Assembly: GCA_020137815.1 (NCBI GenBank)
Contig: CM035353.1
Coordinates: 4,154,001 to 4,218,000 of the forward strand
DNA from: Hormiphora californensis
Lineage: Eukaryota > Animalia > Ctenophora
Direction of reading: 5' to 3'
DNA: 64,000 nucleotides
Every line of letters begins with the position of its first letter. Positions within the stretch are counted from its first letter, which is position 1. Below are positions 2,081 to 62,222 of this stretch, one piece after another. The notes beneath the pieces are model-generated. The model made no database searches and was not told the DNA's origin. It was given only the letters and a program-made list of their open reading frames with translations. The position numbers were made by a program, and so were the translations under genes.

Positions 2081-2250
2081 GGTTTGGTAGCTTAGTGGTT
2101 TATAGCTCCGAGCATGTCTCTCTGGAGGTCCCTGGTTCAATTCCCGGTCAAACCCAGTATTTTATAGGGTTTGGTAGCTTAGTGGTTTATAGCTCCGAGC
2201 ATGTCTCTCTGGAGATCCCTGGTTCAATTCCCGGTCAAACCCAGTATTTT
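2081..2250 (+). pseudogene. Two tandem tRNA-like units (87-bp period): tRNA pseudogene or SINE head
   Basis: A box TAGCTTAGTGG, B box GGTTCAATTCC, acceptor stem GGTTTGG/TCAAACC and a following T-run; the anticodon arm is imperfect (no U33). Confidence 0.65.
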
Positions 2251-3343: not shown

Positions 3344-11395
<8,052 letters not shown>

Positions 11396-23379: not shown

Positions 23380-24069
23380 TTATCTGAAGGGTCTCTGTTT
23401 CTGTTTTATCCTCAGTGGGGGAAGCTGGCTGGCTGGAGAGGAGAAGGAAGGGTTGTGATATTGTCTGGTATGGAGGGGTTGGACACTTTCCCACTGGTAC
23501 ACAACCTCACTCTCACTATCACAACTATTAGCAGTGGGTGGCGGGGGTGTTCGGTGCTGCCGCTGGTGTAGAAACCTCTCCCTCACCATTTCCCGCTTTT
23601 TAGCAGCACTCACTTTCTTCCCGAACTTCTTGGATCGTGAAATGAGTTTTTGGGCCGTTTGATCACTAACCCCCCATTCAGTGACCATCTCCTGTTGTCT
23701 TCTGCTCACTCTTTTACTACTCGGCATTGAGAGGATGCTAATCTCACTGGGCCCACTGGCGAGACTATTGCCTCTGCTAGGGGGACACAGCCTGCTGAGG
23801 GGTAAGAGAGGTACGGGGGTGCGTGTCGTGTCCGTTACAACTGATGATACTGAGAGATGGGAGTAGGCAGGGGTGGGAGGGAGGGAGACGTGGTGTGCGA
23901 GAGATGGGGTCGGAGGTAACCCCCATCCTCTGTCGAGATCATCCTCGTCCCAGTTAAGGGATCCTACTTCATCCAAACTCTCGAGGTCGTCCAGGTCATA
24001 GGTAGCTTGTCGGTACGCCTGGTGAGAGAGGGGGGAGGTGAGAGAGGGGAGATATAGGGTGGGATATAA

Positions 24070-24139
<70 letters not shown>

Positions 24140-27100
24140 TGGCTAAAAACAATAGATAGTCTACTAATAATACCTCTGCAATTCGCTTCCTCACTATCCA
24201 CCCCCTAGCAAGAGACTGAACAGCGACCACTCCCTTCTCCATCTGCCTTCTTCTCTCCTGTCTCCTATGTAACCATGGTAACCAATTCCAAAGATCTCTC
24301 CTCACGGTGTAACCTCTCCAAATCCTTTGTACCAAAACGGAGGCGACCGAGAGCCGCTTGTACTCCCTATACAGCTGCATTTGTCGCTGCTCAACTAGGT
24401 TTTTATAACGTAGTCTGCTACTGAAACCTCTTATCAGGCTCTGCAAACTGAGGACTGATTTGGCCGCAGACTGTCCAATGTTAGCTACTGGCTGGGTCTT
24501 GTTAGGTACAGGTGACTGCAGTTTTGTAACACTAACAGGTCGAACAGTGTCTCTAGAAGGTCGACTAGTGACTTGAGAAGGTCCAGTAGTGTCTCTAGAA
24601 GGTCCAGTAGTGACTTGAGAAGGTCGAGTAGTGACTTGAGAAGGTCCAGTAGTGTCTCTAGAAGGTCCAGTAGTGTCTCTAGAAGGTCCAGTAGTGTCTC
24701 TAGAAGGTCCAGTAGTGTCTCTAGAAGGTCCAGTAGTGTCTCTAGAAGGTCGACTAGTGACTTGAGAAGGTCCAGTAGTGTCTCTAGAAGGTCGACTAGT
24801 GACTTGAGAAGGTCCAGTAGTGTCTCTAGAAGGTCCAGTAGTGACTTGAGAAGGTCCAGTAGTGTCTCTAGAAAGTCCAGTAGTGACTTGAGAAGGTCCA
24901 GTAGTGTCTCTAGAATGTCGAGTAGTGTCTCTAGAAGATCGACTAGTGTCTCTAGAAGGTCGAGTAGTGACTTGAGAGGAATCATCTTTCTTGGGTGTAG
25001 GTGGTCGTGGGTTGTATAATTTAGTAGGATGGCCCTCTCTCGTGGAAGGGGGTGCTTCCAATTCGGGTAAAACTTTGCTATAGAAGCCTTCCTTTGGAGT
25101 TGCAACAGGCGTGTAATTCTCCGCTTCCAATCCGTTCCAGTTGCCTGTCTCAGCACACTGCTGAAGTATCATCTTTGAAATCTCCCAGCGTTCCCTCAGA
25201 TAATCCACCTAAAAAAGGGCACTGTTTAAATCATCACGTTGGTGGTGGTGGTTTATACACAGATCATTGTTGTGTCTGTGTGTTGTCGCCATTATATATT
25301 TTCTAAGAAACAATTTCTGTAATTCATACCTTTGCAGTTGTCTCGTAAGGTGGCTCGAACTGTTTTAATCTCTCCTGAAGCTTCCTCAGTCCCCTCTGAA
25401 GTTCTGTCGCATGACTTGTCACGTGACCCCTCACGCGTGAGGACAGCTGCGTGATGTCCAACGCGTTACCCTCTGCAAGCAGCTCACTTAGCGTGAGATA
25501 CCGGAGACATTGTTTTATATCTCCTGCTAGTGCGTTATTAGAGATATCCAGTGTGTGTAGAAAGGGGGCCACTGTGTAGATGGAGGGCAGGGAGCTGAGG
25601 ACATTACCACCAAGTCGGAGGGTAGAGAGAAGGGGCAACCAGGCAGTACTCAACATCCCAATATCTGTCAGACCTATAGAGAAGAGAGAAGGGGTGAATA
25701 ACTTTGGGATATTGTCAGTGGCCATGAGATAGAACACAATCTCCTCACAAAATCTCCACTTAGTACTTCTCGAAAATTCTCTGAGGCTGAGAGTCTCAGC
25801 TACCGCATATCATGTACTGTATATAATAATAGCTGAATTATATGTTACAAGTTCATGAGGTGCATGAGTCGCAGTAGTACACTCGTGTTTTCATCTATGT
25901 GAACCTCTATGTGTGTTAGCGCGGGGAGGACTCGAAAAAAAAACAAGAAAAACCTCTAGATGTGAGGTGGCCGGTATTTTCTAATTTATCCCACTATTAC
26001 TCCTGAATATGTTACTACGTACCATTATTTGATAGATCCAGGAAGGTTAGGAGGATGTTGTTCGAGAGACAGGGTACATTAACCAGACTGTTACCAGACA
26101 AATCTAAAAACTGGAGCAATCCTGTCAGGGGATTATTTGTTATGTTTGAACGGGGCACGGAAAAGGACAGAGAGACAGAGACAGCGACAGAGAGAATCGC
26201 CCCTATTATAACAGACCCCCATTACATCTAGTCACCCCCATTTCACATACCACATGTCGGGAGATGTTGTACAGTAGAGAGAGAGTTGTTACTTAGGTTT
26301 AAGTGAATCAGGTTAGGTAGGTACTGTAGTGCTCGAGTTGAAACCAACTTGTTCCCAGAGAGATTTAACTGAAGGGGATAGATAGTGTTGTGGGCTGGTT
26401 GTTTGTGACAGATGGTGTTGTGGACTGGGTGTTTGGGAGAGAGGGTATTGTGGGCAGGGTGTTTGGAAGAGAGGGTGTTGTGGGCTGGGTGTTTGGAAGA
26501 GAGGGTATTGTGGGCTGGGTGTTTGGGAGAGAGGGTGTTGTGGGCTGGGTGTTTGGGAGAGAGGGTGTTGTGGACTGGTTGTTTGGGAGAGAGGGTGTTG
26601 TGGGGCGGTGTTTGGGAGAGAGGGTGTTGTGGACTGTGTGTTTGGGAGAGAGGGTATTGTGGGCAAGGAAGGAGGCTTGTAAACTCGTATATTTTTATTT
26701 AAAAGACCAATTATGAAAAGTTATACCATACTAGTCATTATCATAATAAAACGCATTTATCAATTTCTCAGACAGGGTCAATAAGTTACCAGAGTCTCTT
26801 GATTTCTTTCACATAAATTATCTTTCAATCACACCTCAATCACACAACAATCACTGATCACACCTCAATCACACAAAACTCAGGCAAAACTCACACATCA
26901 ATCAAAGACTCAATCACATCCTTCAAACCCTCAGTCTGTCTCTGGTGGTGGCATATCGGGAACATGATATTTGCAGACAGCAGCAAACATTGGACACCCG
27001 AACTTCTCACACAGCCATTTATTCTTAACAACGGCCAGCTTTAGGGACTCCACTTTGAATTGGCAATTAAAATTGGTGTGAATAGCTCGTCCCATTCCCT

Positions 27101-30100
27101 CAATCACAACCAGATCACACCCCACACACTCCGCAGCTACCTGCTGTGATATCCTACTGAGATCCAGACAAGGTGATCCCAAACCGTTCTCAATAATCCT
27201 AAGTTTACCCTCGTCCACCGCACCCTGTACAACATCTGACATACTACAGACTTGGGAGACTATCATTCTCAGCTCATGTGATGTGATGTCGTTTAGAGGC
27301 GGGTCTACTGTTAGCTGCTAACACCACTTCACTCCCCATTCGCAGCATCTCAACCACAAAGGGTAGGATCCCAAGGATGATGTCAGCCCCGCTGTTGTCA
27401 ACAAACACCAACATTTTCCTAATGCTCGCCCTTTTAAGTCGCTTGATCCAGTGTTCAAGGTGGTCAACGAACCAGGGGGGTGACTGAACGAGATCACAGG
27501 CAGCACCAAAATCTATCTTCGTCTTTTCATTGATCCGCACCACCGCAGACGAGCCCCAATCGAATATGTTGCCCCCTAAGATCCCCTTTATTAACTCTAC
27601 TTGCCTCTCCTCCCAGGGGAGTGTCCGGAGATACTCCAGCCGCCCTGGAAGCTGCTCTAACGCAGCATTGTTCTCCTCTAGCTTGAACTTTAGATAGGGA
27701 TCATAAAAATCAAATTCAGCCAAGAACTGCTCCCTGCAGTCTAACAGTGTTCTTACGGTGAGATTCCCATACGCAAATGGGTTCTTTCTCAGCAGGGCTA
27801 GACACTCCAAAAACTTCTTTTTGAACAACGCCATCCTTTTGTCGATATGAACTCTGTTAGACTCTCCATCTCGGATCACTTTACAGAACTTATCCAGTCC
27901 GTCCTTGAATATGTCCAACCAATAATTCCTCGCCTCAGTTTCTAACGACAGGTCTATCAAGTCAGCTTGGTACTCCTCAGCGTTTAGCAATGGAAACTGC
28001 ACCAGGGGCAGATCCAACCTATCTAGCTCCAGGAATTGAAGTGCCTGGGTCACAGCATCGTTCACCTCAAAGCTATCAGAAAATGCGTAGTTTTCTCCGT
28101 AGTTCCCGACCGTTTCCGAGTCGCCCACATTTTCATCAGTTGTGCCTGTCATGTAGGCACCCACCGCACCCAGGTACCCCTCATGACGCATGAAGAGCGC
28201 CTGGATTGTACCCTTGCTCCAATAATTAATTGCATAGGATATGGAATGCATCGTAGTTTTCTTACCTCGGATAAAGAACCCTCCGAATATCACGTGCGAG
28301 CAATTGTATAGGTTGGCGTGAAGGTATGCTATCTGGCCAATACCATTACTAATCATATGTAGAAGACTCTTAGCGATACTCGATTTGGGAAGCTGCTCCC
28401 TGGCAGGTCCGGCTATCCGAGACCTGGCTGCCTTTCCGAAGCTGCTGGCCACCAGGTCTCCAGGTAGCCCCATGGCTTCATAAGATCCTCCATAAATGTC
28501 CTTGACTAACAAGTCAACTGCACTCGAGTCCCCTTCCTCTGCTAATGCTAGCAGCTCGTCAAACCCTTGAGCGTTAGTCAGTAGGGATCCTAGTCCCCAG
28601 AATGTCCCGCCGCCCATGGCCGTACCTCCAACCCTCTCAAACTTACTGTCGCTGTGAACCTTTAGTATACTGACACCTGACCCGATGTTAACTAAAAGAT
28701 AGGGAAACTCACAGCCCGCCTTCCGGAATTCAATCTCCGGATTTCGGTTCTTTTTAAACGAGAAAGCTTCGTTTGGGATGTTGTTGAGGAGAAAGTTGGC
28801 ACCTTTAATGAGACACTCCATTTCGTCCTCCTTCACTATCTTCAGCCCCAGTTCCTGCTCAAAAAGGGCGGTAAACTTAAAGGCACCCCCACCCGTCACC
28901 CTGATAGTACGTCCATGACACAAATCCACGTCATCGCCCATACAGTCCTTGATGTAGTGCGTCAAACTCTGTATGTGCTTTGTTTCAAACTTGACGAATT
29001 GCAACCTGCTCCTCCTACATTCCTCATCTCTTACTTCCCCCTCCCCTCCTCCCTTGCTACTCCCCCCACCGTCCTGGGAAATAGTCCGGCGTCGGCCCGG
29101 CACATGGGTCAGGTAGGCTAACTTTGCGAGGGAACCACCAATATCAATGGCCAGGTTTGAGGCCTGACGAAGAGCGTTGAGATGGCGTTCTGGAATGTAA
29201 ATTGGAGGAGCGTACCGGTCGATTCCTCCGTGAGACATGGCTAGTTAAGGGGCGTGTGTTAGAGCGGTTCTGGTCAAGACAAGTTGAGTGCAAAAAGGGT
29301 GGGAGACGTGTTTCCTTCTCAATTGTGAATGTGGTCAACGTGTAATGGAAAGGTAAACAGAGAACTGGAAGAGAAGGAAGACAGAGAATTGGAAGACAGC
29401 GAAAGGGAGGCACCGTACCCAAAAGCACATGGAGGTACACAGCAGTAAAGACCAAACAACAGCTAAATGCAGCAGATGCTGGGAAAGATGCGGCATCGTG
29501 ACCATTGAGTCAGAGAAAGAGAGGGAGAGAGAGAGGGACTGAGAAAGAGGGCGAGGGAGAAAGAGGGGGAGGGAGAAAAGAAGTTAATTAGGAAATCAGT
29601 TAACAAAGCTCTGTTCTTTTGCACCTGCTACACATACAATAGCTTTACAATCAGTGGGTCGGCAATTAACAAAGAGAATATACACGTGTTACAGTCCGAA
29701 GAGTAAGGGCAATGAAAATGGGGACATGTTCTAATAACAGTAGAAAACGGGGCTGTAATAAAAGACTATACTAGCCAGACAGGATGGATGTTTTGGAAAT
29801 TACGTTAGAGATAGGAACATGACTTACAAGATTGAGGAATGTACTGCGATATATGTGTGGGGTAATCAGAGTAAGTAGTGACGTCACGTGAGGGAGATTG
29901 GGATTGTAATAAACACTATTGCTGTACACCACTTTGTCGCAATATAGTGCTCTGTGAGCTCGAGGGTTCGGAAGAGCAAAAGTAAGTAAGGTTACAGAGG
30001 ATAAAACATGGGGGGGGGGGGGGGGGGGTGGCGTCACTAGGGGGTGTGTCGCAACATACCACAGTGAGGTTAGAGGATAGTACGGGACTGAGGCGGTGTA

Positions 30101-33100
30101 TGTCATTCGAGGAGAGGTCCCATAACAGTAGAGAGGGTGTTCCTTTTCCTATTTTTGTAAGACCACAACTCGTCTGAAAGGGAGCCGTTTTAGGTCAGTT
30201 AACAGTTTGGGGCATAAATGGGGTGGCAGAGGTGATCATATTCAACTAGGAGACAGGAAGACAACAAAAGTCATTACTACCCCACGCACCTCCCCCTCCA
30301 ATATTAAAAAGAAGATAAAGAGACTACAGAGAGATTGTCGTTTTACCCCCCCCCCCCACCACCGCATCATCCCACAGAATATATCTCAGGGAGTGTACCT
30401 GGTAGAGAATGGAGAGATTGTCATGTTTTCCTGTCATTGTAACATCACTAGATCCATCTATTGACAGTAACACCGCTTCACCAGGGACCACCTAGATGAA
30501 AACATTATTAGCAGTAAAACATGTGTTACTAGTGCAATTGTTGCCAAGCTAGACTGCCACTCGGGGTTGAACAAAACAAGTGCAATGGTAGTACATCGAG
30601 GAATTGACCCATAACAACTACTACAGAATTCCCATACCTCAATATTAGTAGAGTCCTTGATAAACAATTCCCTGCACTCGCCCCTCACCCTCACTCGATC
30701 AGCTCCCTCCACCACAGCCGTTACACCCCCAATTACTCGGGGCCTTATCTCCTGGTAACCGCCCCCACTAGAACTCCTTCCCGCGGTTGCAGGTCGTGCC
30801 GGCCTATCACTCCAGCGTGCCCCCTGAGCGAGCCACCTGTCTTGTGCAGCTTCTAATTCCCTCCCAAACTCCCCCCAGTCTTCATCGTCGTCTATAACCA
30901 AGGAGAGCTCCCGTGCGAAAACGAGATCATTTTGAAGTTTTCTTCTCCTACGATACTCGCTCCGTGCCCCCTCGACCTTTTTCTCTTTTTCTTCAACTGT
31001 TCTCTCTTGTTGGGAATCTTCAACTTTTCTCTCTTGTGGCTCTCCAAGATTTCTGTCTTCCTGACTAGGCACTTGTAACCCCGTACTAGGTTGTTTTATC
31101 CTGCCTTGGGCGTTTTCTTCAACCAGAGTTCTGCCTACTTCTGGTATTTCATGCTGCTTAGGGGCAGTCTCAAGCATCGAGGGTTTAATAACAGGTATTT
31201 CTCCACATGTATGTTCCCCGAGTTTTTCGGCTGGTTCTTCTTTTCCAGATTCAGAAAGTTTCTCATTTCCGACAGAAACCGAAGGAAGTTTGACGGATTC
31301 GAACGGTTCCACAAGGCCCAAAGGTTCTAAAGGGTTTGCAGGTTTTAACGGTTCTGCTGGTATCGAAGGTTCTGACGGTTCCGGTATTTCTTTTCTATAC
31401 TCCTTGGTAGGTTCCCCGATAGATTTTATAGGTTGATCAGGTTCACTTTTCACCTGTTCAGAAGCCACCTGTTCAGAAAGCCACCCTGTTCAGAAGCCCC
31501 TTGTTCAGAAGCCACCTGTTCAGAAGCCACCTGTTCAGAAGCCACCTGTTCAGAAGCCACCTGTTCAGAAGCCACCTGTTCAGAAGCCACCTGTTCAGAA
31601 GCCACTTGTTCAGAAGCAACTCGTTCAGAAGCCACCTGTTCAGAAGCCACCTGTTCAGAAGCCACTTGTTCAGAAGCCACTTGTTCAGAAGCTACATGTT
31701 CAGAAGCCACCTGTTCAGAAGCTACCTGTTCCGTTTTGACTGGCTCTGTTAACTCTGAACTTTTGAAAAGCCGTTTTGCTTTGTTAGCCATTGAAGATAA
31801 GAATGATTGCTTCGTTGTCTCAACAGGGGATGAAGTTGTTTTCTCCTGGTTGCATTTAGAGGATGAAGTTGCCTCAGTGGAGCCTGAGGGTTTCTCAGTT
31901 AGATACTGGTCTCCATGTTGTCCTAACCAGTGCATTTCCTGTTTCCCTGCCAACTGTCTAGTTCTCTCTTCCTCCTCTCTTCTAGCCCTATCCTCCTTCT
32001 CTTTTTCCCTTTGTCTTTCCATTTCCTCCTCCTCTCTTCGTTTCTTCTCCTTCTTCATCCGCCGCTGTTTCAACTCCTCTGCTCTTTCCTCTGCCCTAAT
32101 CTTCTCTTCCACTTCTTGTCGTTTCCTTTCTATCTCCCTCTCCACGGCCAGTTTTTCCTGACGAATGATCTCCTCAGTACCTCCTCACCTCTTCCTCAAG
32201 TGCCATCTTTCTCCTTCGCTCTATCACTTTTTCAACCTCCTTCTTGTAAACTTTCCTAGCCAACATCCCTCTCACGCGGGACTGGATGACTGTAGCTGCT
32301 CTCTCCCTTTTTTCCTCATTCTTTCTCTCCTGATCTCTTAGTCTCCTCTCATGCTCCACTCTCTCCCTCTCCACTTCTTCTGCCAGTATGTTTAGTTGAT
32401 GCTGGTGAGCCACAAGGTCCTTTTGAAGCTCCTCCTCAGCCAACTCCATCTCCTTCTCGATCTTCCGTAGCTCAGCCTAAAACAGGGGATGTTAGGAATG
32501 TGAAACATGTATTTGGAGTTTCGTCCAAACAGCTACCTCTTGTAGCCTCTCGAGTCGCTTCTTTTCTTCATCTAATAATATATTTCGATCCTCTGCTGCT
32601 TTTACTCGATCGGCAACCCTGTTTTCTTCAATTTCCCGCTCTGCTTCTATGTCTTTATCAACTGTTGCAGGAGGTTTTATCACCTGAAATAACGGTGTCG
32701 TTACACTTGTAACCAAACACCTGAACACATCTAGAAGAAACACCAAACTCCATCTTCTACCCTGCCTAGCTAGACCCCCTAGATGGGATTGAACCAGGAA
32801 CCGACCGAATCAGGAAATACGGGTCCCTGATTGGCTGATAACCAGTCACGTGACCTAAATAACAAGTTCTGATTGGTTGTTTACTTGTTTCGGTCGGTTC
32901 CTGGATTGAACAAAACAACTTCTGTACCTGGTATATCGGTAGATCACACTGCAGCTTTATCTTGTATCGGCTAGTGAGAGTTTTCAAATCTATGACGTCA
33001 TCCAAACTACTGTCTTCATCCTCAGCATTCACCATCCCATCTTGTTGGGTTTCTGTAGTCTGGGGTTCCCAACTGAGGGTCTCTCCTGCACCCACCGCCT

Positions 33101-33796
33101 CTTCCTCTAGAACTTCCAATTCCTCCTCCCACTCGGTCGATAGCACACTCACCTGAGAGAGCGAGAGAAGTCAGAAGAGGGTTAAAATAGAGCCCGGTCA
33201 GAGGGAGATAGGAACCTGGTAAAATAGAAGGGGGTAAGAAAAAAAAGGAGCCCAGTCAGAAGAGAGTGGAGATTGGAGAGGTACCTACTTTGTCATGGTA
33301 ATTTAGGATAGTCTCGCATTCTACTAGATCTTCCTCAATACCATTAGAGACACTCTGAATCAGAGACAGGTAGGTTTGTACTGAATCCGGTACACACTCA
33401 TCGTTATCTGAAATTGTTCATAGCACTAACACAATACATGTATTGTCATCGAAATGTCATTATATTCCGCCTTTTTCATTTCTGTTTAATTCTGATAAAT
33501 AGAGTTTTACTTCTAGTTCTCAGGATGTGCTGATATAGCACTATACCTTGTATTATACTCGTGCCGAGGGAAAAAGCTCGGCACTCAACTACCTCAATAA
33601 ATATAATAGTTCAGCAAACCGGTGAAATTAATTACAGATGACCAGTTATGTTTCAGTACTTACCATTCACAAGATTTACATTGTGGAAAGTGAGGTCCTT
33701 TAGCTTATTCTCTGCATCTTCTATACACTGTATGGGGCTAAGTGCCCTTAACTGCCGTTCAAGTTCTTCCTCGGCCCATTCATCCGATATTACCAT
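23380..33796 (-). CDS. LRRIQ1: LRR- and IQ-domain protein (LRRIQ1-like), multi-exon
   Basis: Acidic N-terminus (MVISDEWAEEELERQL at 33796); IQ motifs (VIQSRVRGMLARK, LQSLIRGF, VQRIWRGYTVRR, VQSLARGWIVRK); LRR exons at about 26020-26120 and 25330-25670; C-terminal EWG..QTAQKLISRSKK. Small indels at about 32178 and 31470-31490. Exon list incomplete. Confidence 0.75.
24540..24980 (-). repeat. Coding 21-bp tandem repeat (TTGPSRD/TTGPSQV)n in the LRRIQ1-like exon
   Basis: ORF 23964..25208; about 20 units. Confidence 0.9.
26384..26665. repeat. 30-bp intronic tandem repeat
   Basis: GTTTGGGAGAGAGGGTGTTGTGGGCTGGGT units, about 9 copies. Confidence 0.9.
26931..29238 (-). CDS. PANK4: Pantothenate kinase 4 (type II PanK plus DUF89/ARMT1-like phosphatase), intronless; +1 frameshift at about 27298
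   Basis: AIDIGGSLAKL, TGGGAFKF, YLLVNIGSGVSILKV, GGTAMGGGTFWGLG, RHEGYLGAVGA, then GNIFDWG, VDNSGADIILG, EGMGRAIHTN. Removing one base restores RPALNDIT. Confidence 0.93.
31452..31730 (-). repeat. Coding 15-bp tandem repeat (VASEQ)n in the LRRIQ1-like exon
   Basis: CTGTTCAGAAGCCAC units, about 18 copies. Confidence 0.9.
32795..32903 (+). mobile_element. 109-bp hAT MITE
   Basis: TIRs; 8-bp TSD GATTGAAC. Confidence 0.93.
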
Positions 33797-34598
33797 CTCA
33801 TCTATAACACACATTTTATTGTTATTTCATTAGAAATTGTAGTGCAAAGCAGTCTGACTTGGAAAACGATAAATGGTCTACAAACACTCTCAGATAAATC
33901 TCTAAGACCCTAATGACTTGGTGGAAAATCTCTGAAGATTCGCTGGAAATCTTATGGTGAACTTCTCTAAAAACTCGCATGACTAATTACCGATTGTAGT
34001 AGAGAGCTTCTCCCGAGTTATTTGAAGGTGTTCTCTGCGATCGCTGGTCATTATCTCAGATGACACCAGCTTTCTAATGACCCGGGAGAAGTTCTCTATA
34101 TATGTTGCAATTGGTACCTATCATTATTCATGCGCTGTCAGTTCTCGCGCGAGAATAGGGTAATTATGCCAATGCTCTGACAGCTGTCGACAGGTCATGT
34201 GGGGTCACATCTGCTCCCCAGCTTCATTTTGACAAACGCTGCCTTTGTCGCACAATCTCGTTCGGCATATTTTGCTTTTTCAAAAGCCCGATAATGATGC
34301 TTCCACTTCTGCTTGGAACTTTCATCTCTCCAACCATAGCACAAGGTATTTTTTAGTTGTAAAACTGTTAGAAGCACGCCGCACTGGACCTTCACCAACT
34401 TGTTTGTTTTGATTCAAGGAACACTTTAGTGAAGGTCCGATTCTTCTAACTTATGCTTAAAGCTTGCACTTACGAATTTCGAACACACCATTTTGATTTT
34501 TCGCCAAGGAATGTTACACACAATTGGTATAGATATTAAATTCAAACTTTCGTTTTCGTGCACCTGTGTCCATGCATGTGATATTAATTTGTTAATAG

Positions 34599-35201: not shown

Positions 35202-35689
35202 GTAATTCACATGTATAATGTTCGTACTCATTGAATATATACAATTTGCTACAATTCGGTTTAGCTGGCTGTAAGCTTTTTGCTGTTACTTGAACATTCA
35301 AATGACTTAGATATCCATAAAGCCAACATCGCCTTCTATCGCGAGAAAATGTCTATAGATGAAAATGCCTCAAGATTAAGGAATAGCTTACTATGACCGT
35401 GTGTGAGGCAGTGGATCTGAGTTGGATCTGGAAATCAGCTCCAAAGAAGTTTTCATGAAATTTTGTAAAAAAATAGTTTGTAGAGATGGTATCTCCTTTC
35501 GGCTTGGTCAACAGGGACAAAATGAAATTACGGTGTTTTATTAATCAGATTAGTTTCGATGTAACAACATCTTCATCAGCCTCATCAGTTTCAAACTTTC
35601 CAAGCCGGAAGGAGATACCATCTCTACAAACTATTATCATGCGGCTCATAAACAATTATCCGATCTACCGAACTGGAGAGTATCACTAC

Positions 35690-38430
35690 TTGCTAGAGGT
35701 GCTCGAGGGCTTCATCGAGAAATGTTCCAGGGGAAAGGCGGCGCCTGATTTATTCATACTGGGAGACCTAAACCTCCCTCATCATAATTGGGAGCACATC
35801 GAGGGAGATCGGAACTGTGCATCGACGGATATATTCTGTCAAGCGAATTTCCTGACCCAAGTAGTGGTGAAACCAACGAGGGGGTCGAATGTTCTTGATA
35901 TTATCCTCACGAATAGGCCAAACTATTTTGTGTTTACGGACGTAGAGGAGACAGAGATAATCTCTGATCACAAGACTGTTACAGGAGTGTTGGGTTATAA
36001 CCTGACACGGAGATCTGAGGGTAAAAAGGGACTTATAGATCCTCAGTCTTTTTCGGGTATCAACCTTCATAGGGGAGATATGAATATGATACGAGAGAAA
36101 TTGGGAGATATTGATTGGGATGTTTTGTGGAATGAGTGTGAAAGAGCTGAGAATCACGATCCAATCACCGCATTCACTCACCTCCTGACCCTTACAGTCC
36201 TACAGGTGACCTGCCATTACTCGCCCACGAAAAAAGGGCCTAGGAGGCATCCTGAGAAAGATAGGATACTCATTAAATTAAAATCAAAGCGGAGACGGCT
36301 AAATAGGCAGATCAAGAAGAGGAGGAGCGAGAAAGCAAGCCCGTCAAGGATCGAGAAACTACTTGCTCGTGTACAAAGATGTGTGGAAGAAATTCGACAA
36401 CATCTTCTGCAGCAGATCAACTCTGAAGAGGATGAAGCTGTTTCGAAGATCAAGGAGAACCCTAAGTACTTTTTCTCTTATGCCAAGAATAAGAGAAAAG
36501 TCAAGACAAACGTGGGTCCCCTTCTGAAGGAAGACGGCACGCTGACTGATGACCCTGTCCTGAAAGCTGAACTCCTTCAGGACCAGTATGTCAAGGTTTT
36601 CAGTGACCCAACAACAGTTGATGTGGACGAGGCCCTAGAGGGGATAGCTCAACGACAGGAGAGCATCTCAGAAATCATCTTTAACCCATCAACTATCGAG
36701 GAGGCCCTTGCGGAACTGAATCCTCATTCTGCTGCGCCGGATGGAGATATTCCCGCAAAGATTCTCCACGACTGCAGAGGAGTACTGGCATACCCGTTAT
36801 GGAAACTCTGGAGTCGCTCATTTGAGGCCGGCTTTATACCTCAACAACTCAAGGAGCAGCAGATTGCCCCAATTTTCAAGAAGGGCAACAAATGTCAACC
36901 AGAGAACTACCGCCCAGTTGCACTAACTTCGCATCTGGTCAAGACATTTGAGAGAGTAGTGAGGACACAACTTTCGGACTACGTGGAGAACAGTGGAATC
37001 CTGAATGAGGAGCAGCATGGTTTTCGGGCTGGTCGGAGCTGTCTCACACAGCTACTGTTACACTACGATACGATTCTGGAGAGTCTGAACAGTGGACTAG
37101 AAGTAGACGTAGCCTACATAGATTTTGAGAAGGCTTTTGACAAAGTTGATATTCAAGTCCTTCTTCAAAAGCTTCAAAGGTATGGAGTAACTGGGAAGCT
37201 GTTCATGTGGATACAAGCTTTTCTCACAGGAAGATCGCAGACTGTCGTATTGGAAGGATGCAGATCGAGGATGGAGGCGGTGATCAGCAGTGTCATTCAA
37301 GGATCAGTCTTGGGCCCACTATTGTTCATTATCTACATTACCGATCTGGTATCAGGAACGACCGGAAAACTTGGAACTTTCGCTGATGATACCAAGATTG
37401 GTCAAGATATCAGGGACCTGAACGATAGGGACAGCCTCCAGAGAGACTTGAACTTGATAGAGGAGTGGAGCCGGAAGAACAACATGGCTCTCCACGAAAA
37501 AAAGTTTCAGGTCCTGAATTACAGGTTAAACTCCACGAAGCCACTGAGAGACCTACCTTTCAATGCTGAATGCTATTTCTACTTCAACCCGAACGGAGAT
37601 ATCATCGAAGCAGAATTCGGAGTAAAAGACCTTGGGATATACCTGACAGAGGATGGAAAGTTCGATTTCCACATCGCAACCATCGCAACAGAGGCCAAGA
37701 GGATCGCTGGATGGGCCCTCGGAGTGTTCAGAAACCGGTCGAAACGAACGATGATAACACTTTTCAAGGCATTGGTCAGGCCAAAGCTAGAATACTGTTC
37801 GGCTCTCTGGTCTTCCACGACGATTAGTAACATCGCTAAGCTCGAGGGAGTCCAGAGATTCTTTACGCGGCGGATCGAGGAGTGCATCGGGATGGACTAC
37901 TGGGAGAGGCTCAAGTTCCTGGGGATCCAGTCACTTCAACGGCGACGGGAGCGATTCATGATAATCCATCTCTGGAAAGTATATCATGGACTCGTCCCGA
38001 ACCATACCACCAGGCCCGTGGACGAGTCATTCAAGGTTCATCCACGGCGAGGTCTCCTAGCTGAATACCCGGACCTTTACACTTCGGCCCAAGATTCAAT
38101 TGAGACCATCAGGGAAGGATCATTCTCAGTGAGGTCAGTCAAGCTCTTCAATAGGATGCCGAAAGAAGTTCGAAGATGCGAAACACTAGAGGATCTCAAA
38201 GTTTCTCTCGGCAAGTTCCTGGATGGTATACCTGATCACCCTCCAGTTCGGGGCTACAGGAGTCCCAACGACAACTCATTGGTTACACTGCTCCCCCCTG
38301 GGTAGTGTATGTTGGTCACTGCATCATTCACATCATTGTACGTAGAAGCATCATGCTGAGAACGTGGTATATTTGTCTTTATAATGCATTGTATGCCGAA
38401 TCTAATTTTGTAAACTTGTAAACTTGTACT
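35690..38430 (+). mobile_element. 5'-truncated CR1-group LINE: end of AP endonuclease, full reverse transcriptase and 3' UTR
   Basis: ORF to 38305 with ILGDLNLP, PTRGSNVLDIILTN, ENYRPVALTS, QHGFRAGRSC, YIDFEKAFDKV, QGSVLGPLLF, FADD, RPKLEYCS; (CTTGTAAA)n tail near 38410-38428. Confidence 0.93.
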
Positions 38431-39427: not shown

Positions 39428-41008
39428 ATGAATTTAACGGTTTTCACTCTACTACTATACGTCTTCTTCCGAGATTTCCGACCATCTGAGCCCTATCTGA
39501 CTCAATATTTGAGGGACTATAAAAATCTGACAAAGAATGAGGTAAACAATCAGGTCTATCCTGTTTGGAGTTATTCTCAATTGCCCTTTCTTGTTCTCGT
39601 CCTAGCAACGACTGATACTCTCCGGTTTCGACCGCTAATTTGGCTTGGAGCATCTCGGTTATGTGGCTACATGGGCACTACTTGTTTTTGGAAAAGGAGT
39701 CGAAATGATGCAGATGATGCAGGTGACATACGCCCTAGGAACTGCATGTGAGATTGCCTTACAAGTCGTACGTGTTTGTAGCAGTACCAAAAGAGCTGTA
39801 CTCAAGCACGAGTTTCTATCTGGCAGCAGCAACCTTGTTAGGACGGTCTCTGTCCTCCTTCACATCAGCCATCTTGGTAGACTACTCTGTGCCTCTTCTC
39901 ACCCTCAATTGGATCAGTTTGGGGAGTGTGGTTATAGCATTGGCTGTGAGCCTTCTAATCCCAGCCCCAGAATTCCTGTTCGCTCCACCAATCCATACCT
40001 CAGAGGAGGTAAACACCTGCAGCCGGATCGTTAAGGAGAAGTTATTCACTTTAAAACAAAACGCTTTCCTATCCTACAAAGTCGGGACAGACAAGACGCT
40101 GGACCTATTGGGCTGTAACTGCCTTCACCCTTTATTTCATGGTAAGTTACAATTGGTAACTGATCCCAGTAGATTATTGTTATTTTAACGAGCTATTATA
40201 CCAGGTATAACAACGACTTAGTTTTACACTCGTCCCGTTTTAGGTTGGTAATACTTCCCAGTCATTTTGGAAGGAGATAGAACCTCGGAGGACTGATTTT
40301 AAACGGCTAAATGGATATGTCATTGGGGCTCACGCACTTCTGGGGTCCTTCACATCTGGAATTTTAACAAGGTACTATTTGAAGAAAAGAACAAATCACG
40401 TAACTTAGTTATATAAGTAAGTTTACACAGGATTTATACAGGTTTGCAATGGCTAGAAAACTAAATATTGAACAGTATATAATGCATTTGATAATCAACC
40501 TTATTCTCAGTTATGTAACTGAAGCAATTTCAGATACTCCAGGCGATTGGAGGGGGCTACAGGTTCCCTGATGTGTCTCCTAATCCTGGCTATGTCTCTA
40601 ACTACCCTCCTCCCGACCCTATTTCCACACCTCTACCTTGCCTATATCTGTGATATTGTCTTCAATGTCCTGGTGTCATGTACCACAACGATTGCAACCT
40701 TCAAGATCGCCCATTCTCTAACCACCAATTTGTTTGGGTTTGTGGTTGGGATCAATAGTTGCGTGGCGAGTGTTCTTGATCTACTCATATCACTGATTGT
40801 AGTTGAGCAGTCGGTACTGGGGCTAGGTCCCACAATGCAATACAGGGTATATGCTGCAATGGGGGCTTCAAGTGTCGTCGGGTATCTGATATACAGGGCA
40901 TATCGTGTCATTTACAAGTGCAACAACCCGGCCACGAGCTTCACTAGCTTTTTCAACGAGTCTGTAATAGAAGAACCGCAGACTGACGATGTTTTGATTA
41001 ACGCTTGA
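39428..41008 (+). CDS. SLC19A: SLC19 family thiamine/reduced-folate transporter (about 3 exons, several small frameshifts)
   Basis: FFRDFRPSEPYLTQYL, VYPVWSYSQL, TDTLRFRPLI, NGYV, IATFKIAHSL, FGFVVGINS. Paralogue not resolved. Confidence 0.88.
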
Positions 41009-41179
41009 TTCATATATCTATTTTGCTATTAAAATTGTTTTGATTTTGGTTTTTTGATTTTCATGTTTTTAATGTTTGATAATTTGACTTCTGGTATTAT
41101 TGCCGTTTTTCTTTAGATCCACGATTAGTGATTACTTTTTTCAGTTAACTTGAATATCATATTCACATCTTCTATAGCA

Positions 41180-42346
41180 ATGCCTGAGATCGATTGGGAA
41201 GCACTGATGGAGAATGGAGGTGAACCTCCTTCCCCTCGTATAGCCACCCCGCTCTCTGGACTACGGACTCTTGATTCAGATATATCCTCTAGTGCTACTT
41301 CAAACCGCAGGAAAAATAGCGGAGTGTCTACAGAAGATGTGGAGAGTGAAGAAGATAGGTCCTTCATGAATATCCAATCAGTCAATGACTTGCTAGGGTC
41401 AGTACACGATCTTGACTCCCCTGACTCCCCTCACCGGGCCAGATCTGCCGTCAGCCTGAAAAGCAACGTAACCTTTGACGAGAGTGAACCGGAGGTGTTC
41501 AACTTTGTGGATGAGTTCAATTTGTTGTCCGTGGGAGAGTTATCCGCTCCTGAGGAGGACTACAGTGAGGTGTCACGTGATCAGACCCGTCCAATTAGTG
41601 CTGCATACACTGAGGATTTTGAGGAGGAGGAGGAAGAGATATCAGAGGATATCAGGTCGAAAAGTGATGGATGGAAGGCCGTTAGGGACAAAGTGCTGAA
41701 TAAAGGGAGGAGTATACCAGTTTTCATGGTTGCCCCCAAGAAGAAGAAACTCAACCGGGATATTTCGTTCAACAGATCCCTTGATCAGTCTGAGTTATCC
41801 CAGTTGTTGTCAAGAAAGAATTCGATTGCCGAGTCTATCAACTCATCCCGCACCTCAGCAAAGACCTCATCACGCAACAAAACCTCGGTGTCATCTCGTA
41901 CCTCGGTTAGCAAAACCTCAGTCAGTAAAAGCAGTAAAACAAGCAGTAGTGGAGGATATACCTCGGATACGACTACAGTCTCCACTTCCCACACAGCGGT
42001 ATCAAAAGTAAAGTTCACTAAGCCGTGTTGTCAGTGCCAGTGCAAGAAGCAGAAAGTCAACCTGAACTTCCAACCCACACCCCTCCTAGGTGGAGGGGTC
42101 ACTCTTGATAGTAAGACACTAGCAGATCTCTCCGCGATGACACCAGACAGGGTAGCGCTATTAAACATTATGAAGTCTCAGTTCGAGTTAACAAGAGGCC
42201 TGCTAGAGATCACCAATGGGGTTCTGAGGAGTGAGATTGAGGGGACAGTGCCGGACAAGAAGTATACGACACTGGAGAACACTAAACTGTACATCAAGGA
42301 AAACCAACCATATACGAAACCAAGAAAGAAGAGGGGGAAGATTTAA
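41180..42346 (+). CDS. C19orf44: C19orf44-like protein (C-terminal DUF4614), single exon
   Basis: Ser/Glu-rich body with YTEDFE; C-terminal LSAMTPDRVALLNIMKSQFELTRG...YTTLENTKLYIK resembles DUF4614. Confidence 0.72.
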   Translation: MPEIDWEALMENGGEPPSPRIATPLSGLRTLDSDISSSATSNRRKNSGVSTEDVESEEDRSFMNIQSVNDLLGSVHDLDSPDSPHRARSAVSLKSNVTFDESEPEVFNFVDEFNLLSVGELSAPEEDYSEVSRDQTRPISAAYTEDFEEEEEEISEDIRSKSDGWKAVRDKVLNKGRSIPVFMVAPKKKKLNRDISFNRSLDQSELSQLLSRKNSIAESINSSRTSAKTSSRNKTSVSSRTSVSKTSVSKSSKTSSSGGYTSDTTTVSTSHTAVSKVKFTKPCCQCQCKKQKVNLNFQPTPLLGGGVTLDSKTLADLSAMTPDRVALLNIMKSQFELTRGLLEITNGVLRSEIEGTVPDKKYTTLENTKLYIKENQPYTKPRKKRGKI

Positions 42347-42488
42347 TTGTTATTATTGACGTATTATTATTGTGAATGTATGTACATATTTTAATCTGAC
42401 CAACCGTCTTTTACAAAGTTCTGTTTCCACCTTGTAGTTTTAAATTTTTGCGATATATATCTCACGCCTTACCTAATTAGGACTAGCC

Positions 42489-44411
42489 ATGGCGCCGGCG
42501 TATAAACAGAGGTACTATACTCCGGGAGAGGTGGCCCAGCATAGCTCGAGTAAGGATCTATGGGTCTCGTTCCTGGGGAAAGTATACGATCTTACACCCC
42601 TACTGGATAAGAATGCTGGCAATATCTTATTGAAACCAATCCAAAATGCTGGAGGAAAGGATATTTCCCACTGGTTCAATGCTAATGCTGATAGTGTAAG
42701 TTAACTTGAACTCTCCAACCCCCTTTACCTGTGATATTCTCACTCATTATATGTCGGTATTTAGTTGTTTTCTTCATTTGTTCTAGTCATTTCCTCATTC
42801 ACACCTCACACCTCACACCTCACTATTCACACCTCACCAGTCAACTCACCCTCCATACCTCACACCTCACAGGTTATCGTTGCAGAGGCCAAATCACAAG
42901 ACAGCCTACAATCACAAGACACTCAGGTCCACTGTTTAACAAATCACATTTCATTTTCTATCTTAGATCATCATAGATTAATAATAAACAATCTAAATTC
43001 TAAATTCTAAATTCGAGGCTGATAAACAGTTATTCGATCATTCAACTATCTAATAATTGTTAACTCCCCTAATGTTCAGAAAACCGATTTTGACCCGAAA
43101 GTGCGGACTCACATTGATAGGAAAACAGGATGTGAGGTGCCCCACACCCCTCAAGGCCGCTTTATTCACATTCCCCCTGCCTACCCTAGTGCCACATGGG
43201 CCAACGACTTCGGTACTCCCTGGTGGAAAGGTCAGTAGATTGGGGCACACGGGGTTTAGTTGTCATCGAGCTGCAAACACCCGGGGTTTAGTATCGTGCT
43301 GCAAACACCCGGGGTTTAGTACCGAGCTGCAAACACCCGGGGTTTAGTATCCTGATGCAAACACCCGGGGTTTAGTATCGTGCTGCAAACACCCGGGGTT
43401 TAGTATCGTGCTGCAAACACCCGGGGTTGAGTATGGAGCTTCAAACACCCAGTGGGTATTACCCAAACCCGGATATATATCGACCTCCTATTTTATGGTT
43501 GGTTTGAATATTGTAGGGCTGCAGGGTTGTGCAGGGTTGTGCAGTACAGAGCAATAATTTGGGTACTAGATAGTGGTGACGACAGTATTTTATCGTGTAT
43601 AATAATACCCAAGCACGAGTGTGACATATACCCCCCAGATGAGTCATATTGCATTGGGCACCTCAGTACCAAGACAAGGAAGATAAGGATTATCAACACA
43701 TTGACCTCACAAGAACATACCATCGAGGTAATTAGCCACATTTGGGGTTGTTTTAATTTGGAGTTGTTTTATTTTTATGTCTGCTGCTAGGACCAGACTA
43801 CCGCTATATTGTGAATGATTAAATAACAAGAAAAGGCCGGTTTGGATAAATACTGGTTGAGATAACAGCTCAGTAACTCCACCCTCGTATTGAACCTAGG
43901 TTGTAGTCACGTACAATAGAACGTGACCGTCCTAGTACCTACGTCACATGATACTGACAGTCACATGGTACACGATTACACCTACCGATATATCTTATAT
44001 TTGTATGTTTTATTATAATACTGTGCAGGTGTGTGGAGAGGAAACTCTAGAAGAAATTCTAAACCGGTTTTATAAGTACAACAAGCATGCTGCTAGCTAC
44101 ACCTGGAAGTATAATGGTAAGTTAAATCAATTCACTGCTTTCAATGGTTGTTGAAGTTGTTCCACTTCGGATATCACATACTTCCATACCTCATGACGCT
44201 CTTGATTTTGTAGGTTGCAATTGTATACCTCTCCTCTAATTAAAGCTCCTCCCATCTCTCTCTTCTAGGTGCCAATCTTGAGATGACCAAATCGTTGGAG
44301 CAGAATGGAGTGAAGGATGAGGATGAAGAGTTTTATGAGCTGAATTTTAACGAAGAAGACTGGCTACCTGCCATTCACATCTACTTTAACGATGACCTCA
44401 CTGAGGCGTGA
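42489..44411 (+). CDS. CYB5D1: Cytochrome b5 domain-containing protein 1 (exons 42489-42695, 43080-43230, 43639-43727, 44029-44116, 44269-44411)
   Basis: [88 protein letters not shown]; phases consistent. Confidence 0.93.
43246..43452. repeat. About 29-bp intronic tandem repeat
   Basis: TGCAAACACCCGGGGTTTAGTATCGTGC units, about 7 copies. Confidence 0.9.
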
Positions 44412-44658
44412 GTTGTGTAGTGGACTATTACAGGGATTTGTGAAACAGAAGAGAGAGAGATAATGTAAATAATAAATTGTATAGTTTTGTGCGATTCATG
44501 CAAATTTTTACACGCTACTCGCTTCATCTTTTCTCTGCCCACAACCTCTATCATGATAAGAGATCCGACCAATATCAGTTCCTTCCATTTCTAGCGAGGG
44601 AGATAATACATACTCCACCCGACTCCACCAAGTATAATAATTTCCTTTCCCGAATCTA

Positions 44659-44763
44659 CAGGGTGGTTCAGAAACATGGAGCCACTTTGAGATAACTAAA
44701 GAGAGAGGATTGTATTTTTCCTATTCTTATCTCCAAGTGGCTCCATGTTTCTGAACCACCCTG
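44659..44763. mobile_element. Tc1/mariner-type MITE
   Basis: TIR CAGGGTGGTTCAGAAACATGGAGCCACTT; TA on both sides. Confidence 0.88.
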
Positions 44764-44882
44764 TAGACATATGGCAGTTCTGTAAGTGTTCTCCTTGCTC
44801 TATCTAAACTTTAGAGATGTTACAATATATCCCCATTTACTAATAGTTACCATGATGTATTTCCCCTCTAGACTCTAGCGAC

Positions 44883-46376
44883 ATGTTATTCGAGGAGGAC
44901 AATGTTAAAAAGGGTGTTCCAATAAGTTTTGGAACGACCCAAGACAGGAAGCTCTTCCCCCACCACTGTGCTTTTAATAGGCTGGGCAACCTCGATGGGA
45001 TACGAGGAGATCCCCATCTTGGACCCGACAAATACAATGTCGATAAGGTAATATCGGGACTTTGGGGATCTGATCAGAAATGGGGTGTTGCTCCCCTAAA
45101 TTCAATCTTAACCTCCCTCTCCCCATATAGGTAAACAGTATCGATTGCAATATTAAAACTAAGCCAACCAATAAACTGGGTTACTCTCTGGGTGCACGAA
45201 CTGCTAACCGGTTCCCAAACCTCAAATGTGTAAGTTGTGACATACATAAAACAGTTAGTTCCAAGAATCCTTTTTAAAAACTTCTTGGCATGTTTCCCAA
45301 AACCCCTCTCTTTCTTTACAGAAAAACGGCTATTTTGCCCACGATCTAAGCCGAGATTTGGAACTTACTTTCCCAGGACCTACATCCTATCAAAAGGAGG
45401 AAAAGAAGATTGTGTCCCTGAACAAAGAGCCCTTTAACAACAGTGCCGGAAGGTTCCCCGCTGAGAGCAAAGCCACCATGTATCTCCCTGCGTAAGTCCC
45501 GTGTGTTGACTGACTATAGATGAGTGTAAGATTTGTGGGCCAGTGTGCCACAAATGGCATAAGCGTGTATTAGCTGTAACGCGCCGCGACTTGTCCATGT
45601 TTCTATTGTTGGTCAGGTGCGCGGTCACCATAGCCACTGTTGTGCCGCGCACTGAACCTGCCCTTTGAAATCGGAGTTCTAAATTTGGACCGATCCATAT
45701 CCCGATCCGCCGTTATCCTAACATTCTCCGATCCCAGGCCAGGAACGTACGAACACGATGTGCAACGCTTTAGACGAGTCGAGTTTGCCGGGTCGTTCGG
45801 AGGGAAGCAGAGGCTGAAGGAGACGATAACTGTAAAATGTGTGAATAATAATGATGATGTTGTAAGTGCCTGTGCATTATTAGTGGTTAGTAACCACTGG
45901 TTATCATTTCATTTGTGTGCTATTAACAATATGGTAACAGTATATCTCCCTTTCAGTGCGATTCATGTAATCGGCCGCCAATTGGAGATTACTTTGTTTA
46001 CAAGAATAAGGCACTGTGTAGGAATTGTCATTCCTTCCACTCTGTCTACGGAGAGAAGTACCCTCCCTCGTGAGTAGAAAATAGGGCACCTATAACTAGG
46101 GGTCCGGCATCTTATAATCAATCAAATGTACGTCTAGGTTGCACCATGATACCTACACACATAATTGCCAGTATAGAATGGCTAGATATTGTGTGTGATT
46201 TGACCCTCACTTTTCTCTCTCTCTATGACAGGTACCTCCAAGCGTTCAGCAAAGTTAGGGATTGTTCAGAAATACATTTCCACGAGGGAACGAGCGCTAA
46301 AATCAAACTGAAGGACCCCAAACTGGAGACAAAACAGAGATATCGAGAAGCTTACTTTGCTCAGTATTTCCACTAA
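44883..46376 (+). CDS. PIFO: Pitchfork / ciliary microtubule-associated protein 3-like, about 6 exons
   Basis: ISFGTTQDRKLFPHH..NRLGN..RGDPHLGP, GYSLGARTANRF, PGTYEH, FAGSFGG, C-terminal REAYFAQYFH*. Confidence 0.72.
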
Positions 46377-46646
46377 TTTCCACTAAGAGGAAGTTTATCT
46401 GAGAGCAAGGACTCAGTGAGAGAAATATTTATTTAGAGAGAGAGAGAGAGCTGCCAAAACACAATATCAGCTTTAGATGTGCTTAAAATGTGTTAACGAT
46501 TTTACCCAATTAAATTTTTCCAGAAACCCCAATAATAGTTGTTTGAACACGGCCGCTAGCTGCTACAACTTGCCAATGTTGTAGCAGCCAGCTAGTTATT
46601 AAACGAATTTATTTTCATATCAGCAAATAAAATATAAATTAACATA

Positions 46647-47598: not shown

Positions 47599-62222
<14,624 letters not shown>

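What the first reader, a model, noticed from the sequence alone, without database searches (positions are those of the whole stretch)
26931..29265. Same-strand intronless PANK4 inside an LRRIQ1-like intron, with its own splice acceptor 2 nt before the ATG
Seen: PANK4 lies between LRRIQ1-like exons at about 30640 and 26350 on the same strand. It is preceded by CTCTAAC..CCCCTTAACTAG|CCATG, i.e. a branch point plus acceptor. In plain cis-splicing this acceptor should trap the host transcript. Inference: PANK4 mRNA could be cut out of the host pre-mRNA or intron by SL trans-splicing, an intron acting as an operon, or it could act as an alternative terminal exon.
Basis: partly seen in the sequence, partly recalled or inferred. 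Interest (0 to 1): 0.8.

Follow-up and report, generated by a model that had tools for sequence, protein, structure and literature searches.

The report
Same-strand nested PANK4 in comb jelly
In a comb-jelly genome a whole intron-free metabolic gene (PANK4) lies in the same direction inside one intron of another gene (LRRIQ1); the splice signal just before its start is shared by most neighbouring genes and is likely the ordinary leader-splicing site, so this is a new example of a described arrangement whose promoter is still untested.

Summary
The nesting is real. The window is ctenophore DNA. PANK4 (29238-26931, minus, intronless, one probable assembly frameshift) fills intron 7 (30059-26369) of a 12-exon LRRIQ1 gene. 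The upstream host exon ends at 30060, not 30640. The exons on either side join in frame inside one leucine-rich repeat, and five homologues align across the joint, so the host is one gene. The AG before the ATG is not special: 6 of 9 gene starts in the window have YAG within 5 nt (background 18%), as expected where spliced-leader trans-splicing is common. It is a mediocre cis acceptor (rank 9 of 27 AGs in the gap), and joining the host donor to it is out of frame with PANK4, so 'it should trap the host' and 'alternative terminal exon' are weak. Parallel nested genes and leaders on at least 56% of reads are published for Hormiphora. Best reading (0.55): own intronic promoter plus leader splicing. 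Release from the host pre-mRNA stays open (0.25); no RNA data decided it. The scan noted similar layouts on other DNA, not this locus.

The parts
23380..33801 (-). Host gene LRRIQ1-like, 12 modelled exons, about 1628 aa, two frameshifts in exon 5 (near 32176 and 31485)
   Evidence: All 11 introns GT-AG, ten of them 60-349 nt; IQ and LRR Pfam hits; named LRRIQ1 proteins align
33796..33803 (-). Host's own acceptor-like TAG 5 nt before its ATG
30060..30173 (-). Host exon 7, ends in phase 0 with ...NLTV; donor GTG|GTATGT
   Evidence: donor in the top 0.3% of GTs, scored in-sample
26369..30059 (-). Host intron 7, 3691 nt, holds PANK4
29241..30059 (-). 819-nt gap between host donor and PANK4 acceptor: candidate promoter plus outron; holds CACGTGACGTCA (29890-29879), donor-like GTAAGT (29827), pyrimidine-rich AGs at 29539 and 29365, three short upstream ATG frames (29505, 29496, 29430)
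   Evidence: function inferred, not shown
29241..29264 (-). Branch-like CTCTAAC and TAG acceptor 2 nt before the PANK4 ATG; likely SL trans-splice site
26931..29238 (-). PANK4 coding sequence, intronless, kinase (Fumble) plus ARMT1-like phosphatase domain
   Evidence: Pfam E 8e-125 and 4e-27/6e-12; 80% identical to Mnemiopsis and Bolinopsis clusters
27291..27298 (-). Single frameshift in PANK4, probably an assembly indel
   Evidence: Both sides match intact homologues (68-80% before, 58-71% after); four other frameshifts in LRRIQ1 and the LGR-like gene
26694..26699 (-). AATAAA 232 nt after the PANK4 stop and 325 nt before host exon 8: candidate PANK4 poly(A) signal inside the host intron
26251..26368 (-). 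Host exon 8, starts in phase 0 with LNLSGNKL, completing the LRR begun in exon 7

Best explanation
PANK4 is a parallel nested gene in intron 7 of one LRRIQ1 gene, and it is likely transcribed from its own promoter in the 819-nt gap, with the spliced leader likely added at the TAG 2 nt before its ATG. Shown: nesting, single host gene, intronless guest, the AG, its enrichment at other gene starts, and that host-donor use of this AG would not encode PANK4. Inferred: a PANK4 primary transcript that starts downstream of the host donor has an acceptor with no donor (an outron) and takes the leader; it ends at the AATAAA near 26699. Inferred: host transcripts splice exon 7 to exon 8 and pass over this weak AG as they pass over stronger cryptic ones, with some loss to leader splicing or early polyadenylation not excluded.
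For: Host one gene: in-frame NLTV|LNLSGNKL joint; P0139 and P0147 (41-45% identity, one gap) and three named LRRIQ1 proteins align across it. YAG within 5 nt of ATG in 6 of 9 starts against 364 of 2019 ATGs, P 0.002; 5 of 8 without PANK4, P 0.007. The AG ranks 9 of 27 in the gap. Gap of 819 nt with AU 0.43-0.63 per bin against 142-178-nt spacers with AU 0.70-0.74 in the operon-like cluster. No AATAAA or ATTAAA in the gap, so no upstream 3' end as in ordinary operons. Internal promoters that create outrons are described in flatworms, nematodes and tunicates (PMC12582326, PMC5832876, passages). PANK4 keeps the motifs matching PANK3 (KEDEMECL, FERVGGT); that it is a broadly needed enzyme while LRRIQ1 is more restricted is recalled knowledge and makes dependence on the host promoter less likely.
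Against: No promoter was shown. CpG observed/expected in the gap is 0.61, at the window median of 0.66, though CpG peaks in this window mostly mark repeats. CACGTGACGTCA is unique in the window, but 2 of the 3 other TGACGTCA sites lie in a coding exon or just inside an intron, so the word does not mark promoters here. Schistosoma data show leader splicing can occur with an upstream donor present, and long introns can act as outrons, which favours the rival. The acceptor matrix rests on only 21 modelled sites with leave-one-out scores from -11 to +11, so -2.8 is still within the range of real acceptors. The nine starts were picked by me from frames and homology.
Confidence: 0.55

Rival explanations
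1. PANK4 has no promoter of its own: the LRRIQ1 pre-mRNA is either cis-spliced exon 7 to exon 8 (host mRNA) or cut by SL trans-splicing at 29241 and polyadenylated near 26699 (PANK4 mRNA), an intron-borne operon.
For: [quoted passage not shown]
Against: The same acceptor type also precedes LRRIQ1 and TMEM260-like starts, so it does not mark operon position; gap long and not AU-rich, no upstream poly(A) word; each such event would destroy one host mRNA and leave a truncated 7-exon piece (inference); a housekeeping enzyme would depend on the host promoter (recalled).
Confidence: 0.25
2. Own promoter with an ordinary cis-spliced 5' UTR exon: a short first exon ends at the donor-like site 29827 or 29637 and is joined to 29241.
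For: CTT|GTAAGT (top 2.2% of GTs) and ATT|GTATGT (top 1.7%) lie in the gap, the first about 50 nt after CACGTGACGTCA, with no ATG between them.
Against: GTAAGT is expected 0.17 times by chance in 819 nt, and two top-2% sites among some 26 GTs is modest; it does not explain why most genes in the window have the AG so close to the ATG.
Confidence: 0.12
3. PANK4 acts as an alternative last exon of LRRIQ1.
For: A high-scoring CAG at 29164 inside the PANK4 coding sequence (top 0.5%) would join exon 7 in frame to PANK4 residue 26 and keep both domains.
Against: The AG named in the finding is out of frame; the two strongest AGs in the gap stop after 9 and 67 residues; all 9 ctenophore homologues compared are stand-alone proteins of 763-803 aa, though that search covered only 359-1145 aa and could not list a fusion; a Gln codon gives an in-frame CAG by chance.
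Confidence: 0.05
4. The arrangement is a mis-assembly or PANK4 here is a decayed copy.
For: Five frameshifts in three genes show an error-prone assembly; no DNA run was listed to confirm the stretch.
Against: Host exon order and phases are intact on both sides; PANK4 identity stays high on both sides of its break and its branch is not long (0.17); one host break is a G and T run lengthened inside a 15-nt tandem repeat, typical of long-read error.
Confidence: 0.03

Closest known systems
Parallel nested intronic genes of Hormiphora californensis (Schultz et al. 2021, PMC8527503; sections 16 and 35 read whole, other passages; supplements not held)
   Same: Ctenophore; a gene wholly inside one intron of a host; 2357 nested genes in 1654 hosts, 'many' parallel; SL on at least 56% of Iso-Seq reads.
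   Different: The paper gives no mechanism, does not link nesting to SL acceptors in the text I saw, and does not name this pair there; its supplementary list could hold it.
Same-strand nested genes of Drosophila (Lee and Chang 2013, PMC3814207; passages read)
   Same: About 29% of nested genes are same-strand and 72.5% of those are single-exon, explained by selection against mis-splicing; PANK4 fits.
   Different: No SL system, so those guests need no acceptor; here the guest carries one.
SL-resolved operons and internal-promoter outrons (flatworms PMC12582326, PMC5832876; nematodes and tunicates PMC7986045; chaetognath PMC12460157; passages read)
   Same: Acceptor just before a start codon; competition between cis and trans use of one AG; promoters inside long introns.
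   Different: Operon genes follow the upstream gene's 3' end at short distance; PANK4 sits mid-host, 819 nt after a coding-exon donor, and is a different gene, not an isoform.
Cholinergic locus unc-17/cha-1 (PMC3875643, one passage read)
   Same: Guest exons on the same strand inside a host intron, one precursor, two products.
   Different: There the guest is in the first intron and shares a non-coding exon; here it is intron 7, the upstream exons are coding and the joint would be out of frame.

Membership tests
Parallel nested intronic gene | Guest wholly inside one intron of the host | tested here: met
   PANK4 29238-26931 within intron 30059-26369 of the exon model
Parallel nested intronic gene | Flanking exons belong to one gene | tested here: met
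   In-frame LRR joint; 5 of 5 long homologues tested align across it
Parallel nested intronic gene | Same strand | tested here: met
Parallel nested intronic gene | Both genes give separate mature mRNAs in this species | not testable with these tools
   No run of this species was available; relatives have stand-alone PANK4 and spliced LRRIQ1 proteins
SL trans-spliced gene | Acceptor upstream of the ATG without a paired donor | tested here: inconclusive
   AG present; host donor and two donor-like sites lie upstream
SL trans-spliced gene | Leader on the mRNA 5' end | not testable with these tools
   The one relative's contig stops before the ATG; SL known for Hormiphora and Mnemiopsis
SL-resolved operon (downstream cistron) | Short spacer after the upstream gene's 3' end | tested here: not met
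   819 nt after a coding donor, no AATAAA/ATTAAA in the gap
SL-resolved operon (downstream cistron) | No promoter of its own; polycistronic precursor | not testable with these tools
   CpG and motif proxies uninformative
Cholinergic-locus type shared-exon pair | Guest in first intron, sharing a non-coding 5' exon | tested here: not met
   Intron 7; exon 7 coding; joint out of frame
PANK4 | Fumble kinase domain fused to ARMT1-like phosphatase domain; groups with named PANK4 | tested here: met
LRRIQ1 | IQ motif, central LRR array, further IQ motifs; similarity to named LRRIQ1 | tested here: met
   Pfam; chiton, shrew and frog LRRIQ1 at 36-37% over 170-200 aa

The most novel reading that the evidence does not exclude
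Ctenophores tolerate many same-strand nested genes because SL trans-splicing releases them straight from the host pre-mRNA, at a distinct class of acceptor (TAG, weak pyrimidine tract; 7 of 8 pre-ATG sites against 8 of 21 cis sites) that cis donors ignore, so an internal intron works as an operon cistron in competition with host splicing.
Probability: 0.25. Interest if true: 0.75.

Novelty: new member of a known kind. Interest (0 to 1): 0.35.

Why it matters
Schultz et al. left open how parallel nested genes in ctenophores are processed apart from their hosts. This locus is a compact test case: one well-defined host joint, one guest acceptor, 819 nt in which a promoter either is or is not. If no promoter is there, an internal coding-region intron acts as an operon cistron, which I did not find described. 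If one is there, the locus is an ordinary example of a published arrangement.

Tried and rejected
No whole genome is held, so no genome-wide count. RNA: no RNA holder listed; the single run X1 is a relative at under 90% identity; 3 contigs laid on 25300-30700, none reaching the ATG or bridging exons 7-8: no verdict. Metagenome scan: 1 locus, a 3' PANK4 fragment without 5' end. SL motif from the Hormiphora paper: 0 matches in the window at 3 mismatches; Rfam: 2 tRNA-like hits only. Conservation of the nesting: no annotated ctenophore LRRIQ1 was returned (one search covered only 1270-3625 aa), and none of 16 PANK4 entries shares a longest-contig length with any of 17 LRRIQ1 entries; species are unmatched, so this says nothing firm. 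RNA pairing that would loop out PANK4: best inverted repeat 30 nt at 70%; best duplex -30.5 kcal/mol, reached by 3 of 40 shuffles: not supported. CpG proxy for a promoter uninformative. An antisense gene in the gap: no open frame over about 80 codons on the plus strand and none recognisable. Two separate host genes: rejected. Papers not held and unseen: Derelle 2010 and two recalled C. elegans papers on unusual operons and on splicing of the cholinergic locus.
Full report
Organism. The PANK4 protein's best hits are at 68-80% identity; two clusters hold named Mnemiopsis leidyi and Bolinopsis microptera proteins. A tree of 21 rows puts the window's protein inside a 100/100 clade with them, branching outside Mnemiopsis plus Bolinopsis (only 20 of the homologues were used). 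The window is therefore ctenophore DNA; the species was not determined, and no whole genome is held.

The guest. PANK4 starts at 29238 and ends at 26931 on the minus strand, with no intron and one frameshift at about 27291-27298. Pfam gives Fumble and ARMT1-like domains. The parts before and after the break match 9 of 9 intact ctenophore homologues (68-80% and 58-71%). LRRIQ1 has two further breaks and the LGR-like gene two, so an assembly error is likelier than decay. Seven full-length homologues lie on contigs of 52 kb to 2.25 Mb from a source whose LRRIQ1 entries on long contigs are only last-exon fragments of 87-262 aa. I infer these are unspliced ORF calls and that PANK4 is intronless in several ctenophore lineages, so intron loss is not tied to this nesting.

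The host. A 12-exon model has 11 GT-AG introns, ten of 60-349 nt and one of 3691 nt that holds PANK4. Exon 7 ends NLTV and exon 8 begins LNLSGNKL in phase 0, forming one leucine-rich repeat in register with the 22-residue series. Two unnamed homologues from transcript-sized contigs (P0139, P0147) align across the joint at 41-45% with one gap, and named chiton, shrew and frog LRRIQ1 at 36-37%. The two-genes refutation is excluded.

The acceptor. TAG|CCATG and CTCTAAC are present. Of 9 gene starts I could place in the window, 6 have YAG within 5 nt of the ATG (LRRIQ1, PANK4, DUF4614 gene, Cyt-b5 gene, PIFO-like gene, TMEM260-like gene); 3 do not (folate carrier 17 nt, sushi gene 10 nt, LGR-like none). 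Background is 364 of 2019 ATGs; P 0.002, or 0.007 without PANK4. The names C19orf44, CYB5D1 and PIFO are recalled; Pfam supports DUF4614 and Cyt-b5 but gave no hit for the PIFO-like exon, and none to TMEM260 for that gene's first exon. This pattern is what SL trans-splicing predicts: Hormiphora has a leader on at least 56% of Iso-Seq reads (PMC8527503). The nearest YAG is TAG in 7 of 8 starts against 8 of 21 cis acceptors (Fisher P 0.035), a hint that the two classes differ, on small numbers.

Should it trap the host? A matrix from 21 modelled cis acceptors scores the PANK4 AG at -2.8 (top 12.5% of 8537 AGs), rank 9 of the 27 AGs in the gap; 29365 (9.4) and 29539 (6.3) score far higher, and exon 8's acceptor scores 7.6 in-sample and 0.9 left out. 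The matrix is crude: real sites score -11 to +11 when left out. A YTRAY word precedes 26% of all YAGs. If the exon 7 donor used 29241 the product would be out of frame with PANK4 and stop after 40 residues. One strong CAG inside the coding sequence (29164) would give an in-frame fusion from residue 26, the only support for the terminal-exon idea. The candidate poly(A) word at 26699, inside the host intron, is as much a hurdle for the host as the AG.

Promoter or operon? The gap is 819 nt, pyrimidine-rich, AU 0.43-0.63 per bin, without AATAAA or ATTAAA. The plus-strand cluster at 39.4-46.4 kb has spacers of 178, 142 and 471 nt, the first two at AU 0.74 and 0.70, and looks more like an operon than PANK4 does. 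Against an own promoter: CpG ratio in the gap is ordinary (0.61), and the E-box/CRE word is not a promoter mark elsewhere in the window. Two donor-like sites allow a cis-spliced UTR exon. No flank pairing that would loop out the guest was found. Flatworm papers document both internal promoters making outrons and leader splicing despite an upstream donor. I put 0.55 on own promoter plus leader and 0.25 on release from the host precursor; both could operate together.

What is known. [quoted passage not shown] In Drosophila same-strand nested genes are mostly single-exon. Nested genes are also common in a glass sponge and a dinoflagellate that have leaders (passages). The window holds a second clear nested gene, antisense. 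In ten searches (listings and abstract starts seen, passages of ten papers read) I found no statement that a nested protein gene is released from a host's internal intron by SL trans-splicing, nor a description of ctenophore operons; Derelle 2010 and two recalled C. elegans papers were not held, and PANK4 or LRRIQ1 were not used as paper search terms. Earlier notes of this scan describe similar layouts on other genomes and none on this one.

Verdict. A real, well-supported instance of a published arrangement, with an acceptor that is normal for this animal. The interesting mechanism is neither shown nor excluded. Interest 0.35; new member of a known kind.

Noticed in passing
window 39428-46400, + strand: Four same-strand genes (folate carrier, intronless DUF4614, Cyt-b5 domain, PIFO-like) with spacers of 178, 142 and 471 nt, each downstream ATG 2-4 nt after a TAG, and a CpG-rich stretch at 38.8-39.4 kb before the first: a better operon candidate than PANK4. 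My searches found no description of ctenophore operons.
   Followed up: partly
window 5874-9326 (-) within 5318-11141 (+): Intronless LDLa plus 7-TM receptor gene nested antisense in the intron that splits the SAM domain of an Eph-like kinase (SAM positions 4-25 and 32-63 on either side); two frameshifts.
   Followed up: partly
window 55519-56500, + strand: Signal-peptide plus sushi-domain gene, probably nested antisense in an intron of the TMEM260-like gene that starts at 62222; the host's downstream exons were not verified.
   Followed up: partly
gene starts across the window: Pre-ATG acceptors are TAG in 7 of 8 cases, mostly followed by C, against 8 of 21 cis acceptors; may mark a distinct trans-acceptor class.
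   Followed up: partly
window 28600-28830 (PANK4 kinase domain): Motifs KEDEMECL and FERVGGT match PANK3's KLDELDCL and YKRVTGT; by recall these carry the Glu and Arg lost in human PANK4, so the ctenophore kinase is likely active.
   Followed up: partly
window 35477-38305, + strand: LINE-type element (endonuclease plus reverse transcriptase, 942-aa frame) between the LRRIQ1 5' end and the folate-carrier cluster; another endonuclease fragment at 59024-60022.
   Followed up: no
window about 12024, 17084, 32845, 47513, 57822: A short inverted-repeat element of about 105 nt with a central GTCACGTGAC palindrome recurs, one copy in LRRIQ1 intron 3; likely a MITE.
   Followed up: no
window 31450-31720 and 24540-24960: LRRIQ1 carries two coding tandem repeats (EQVAS and SRDTTGP units).
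   Followed up: no
window 2081-2242: Two tandem tRNA-like Rfam hits (34 bits), possibly a SINE.
   Followed up: no
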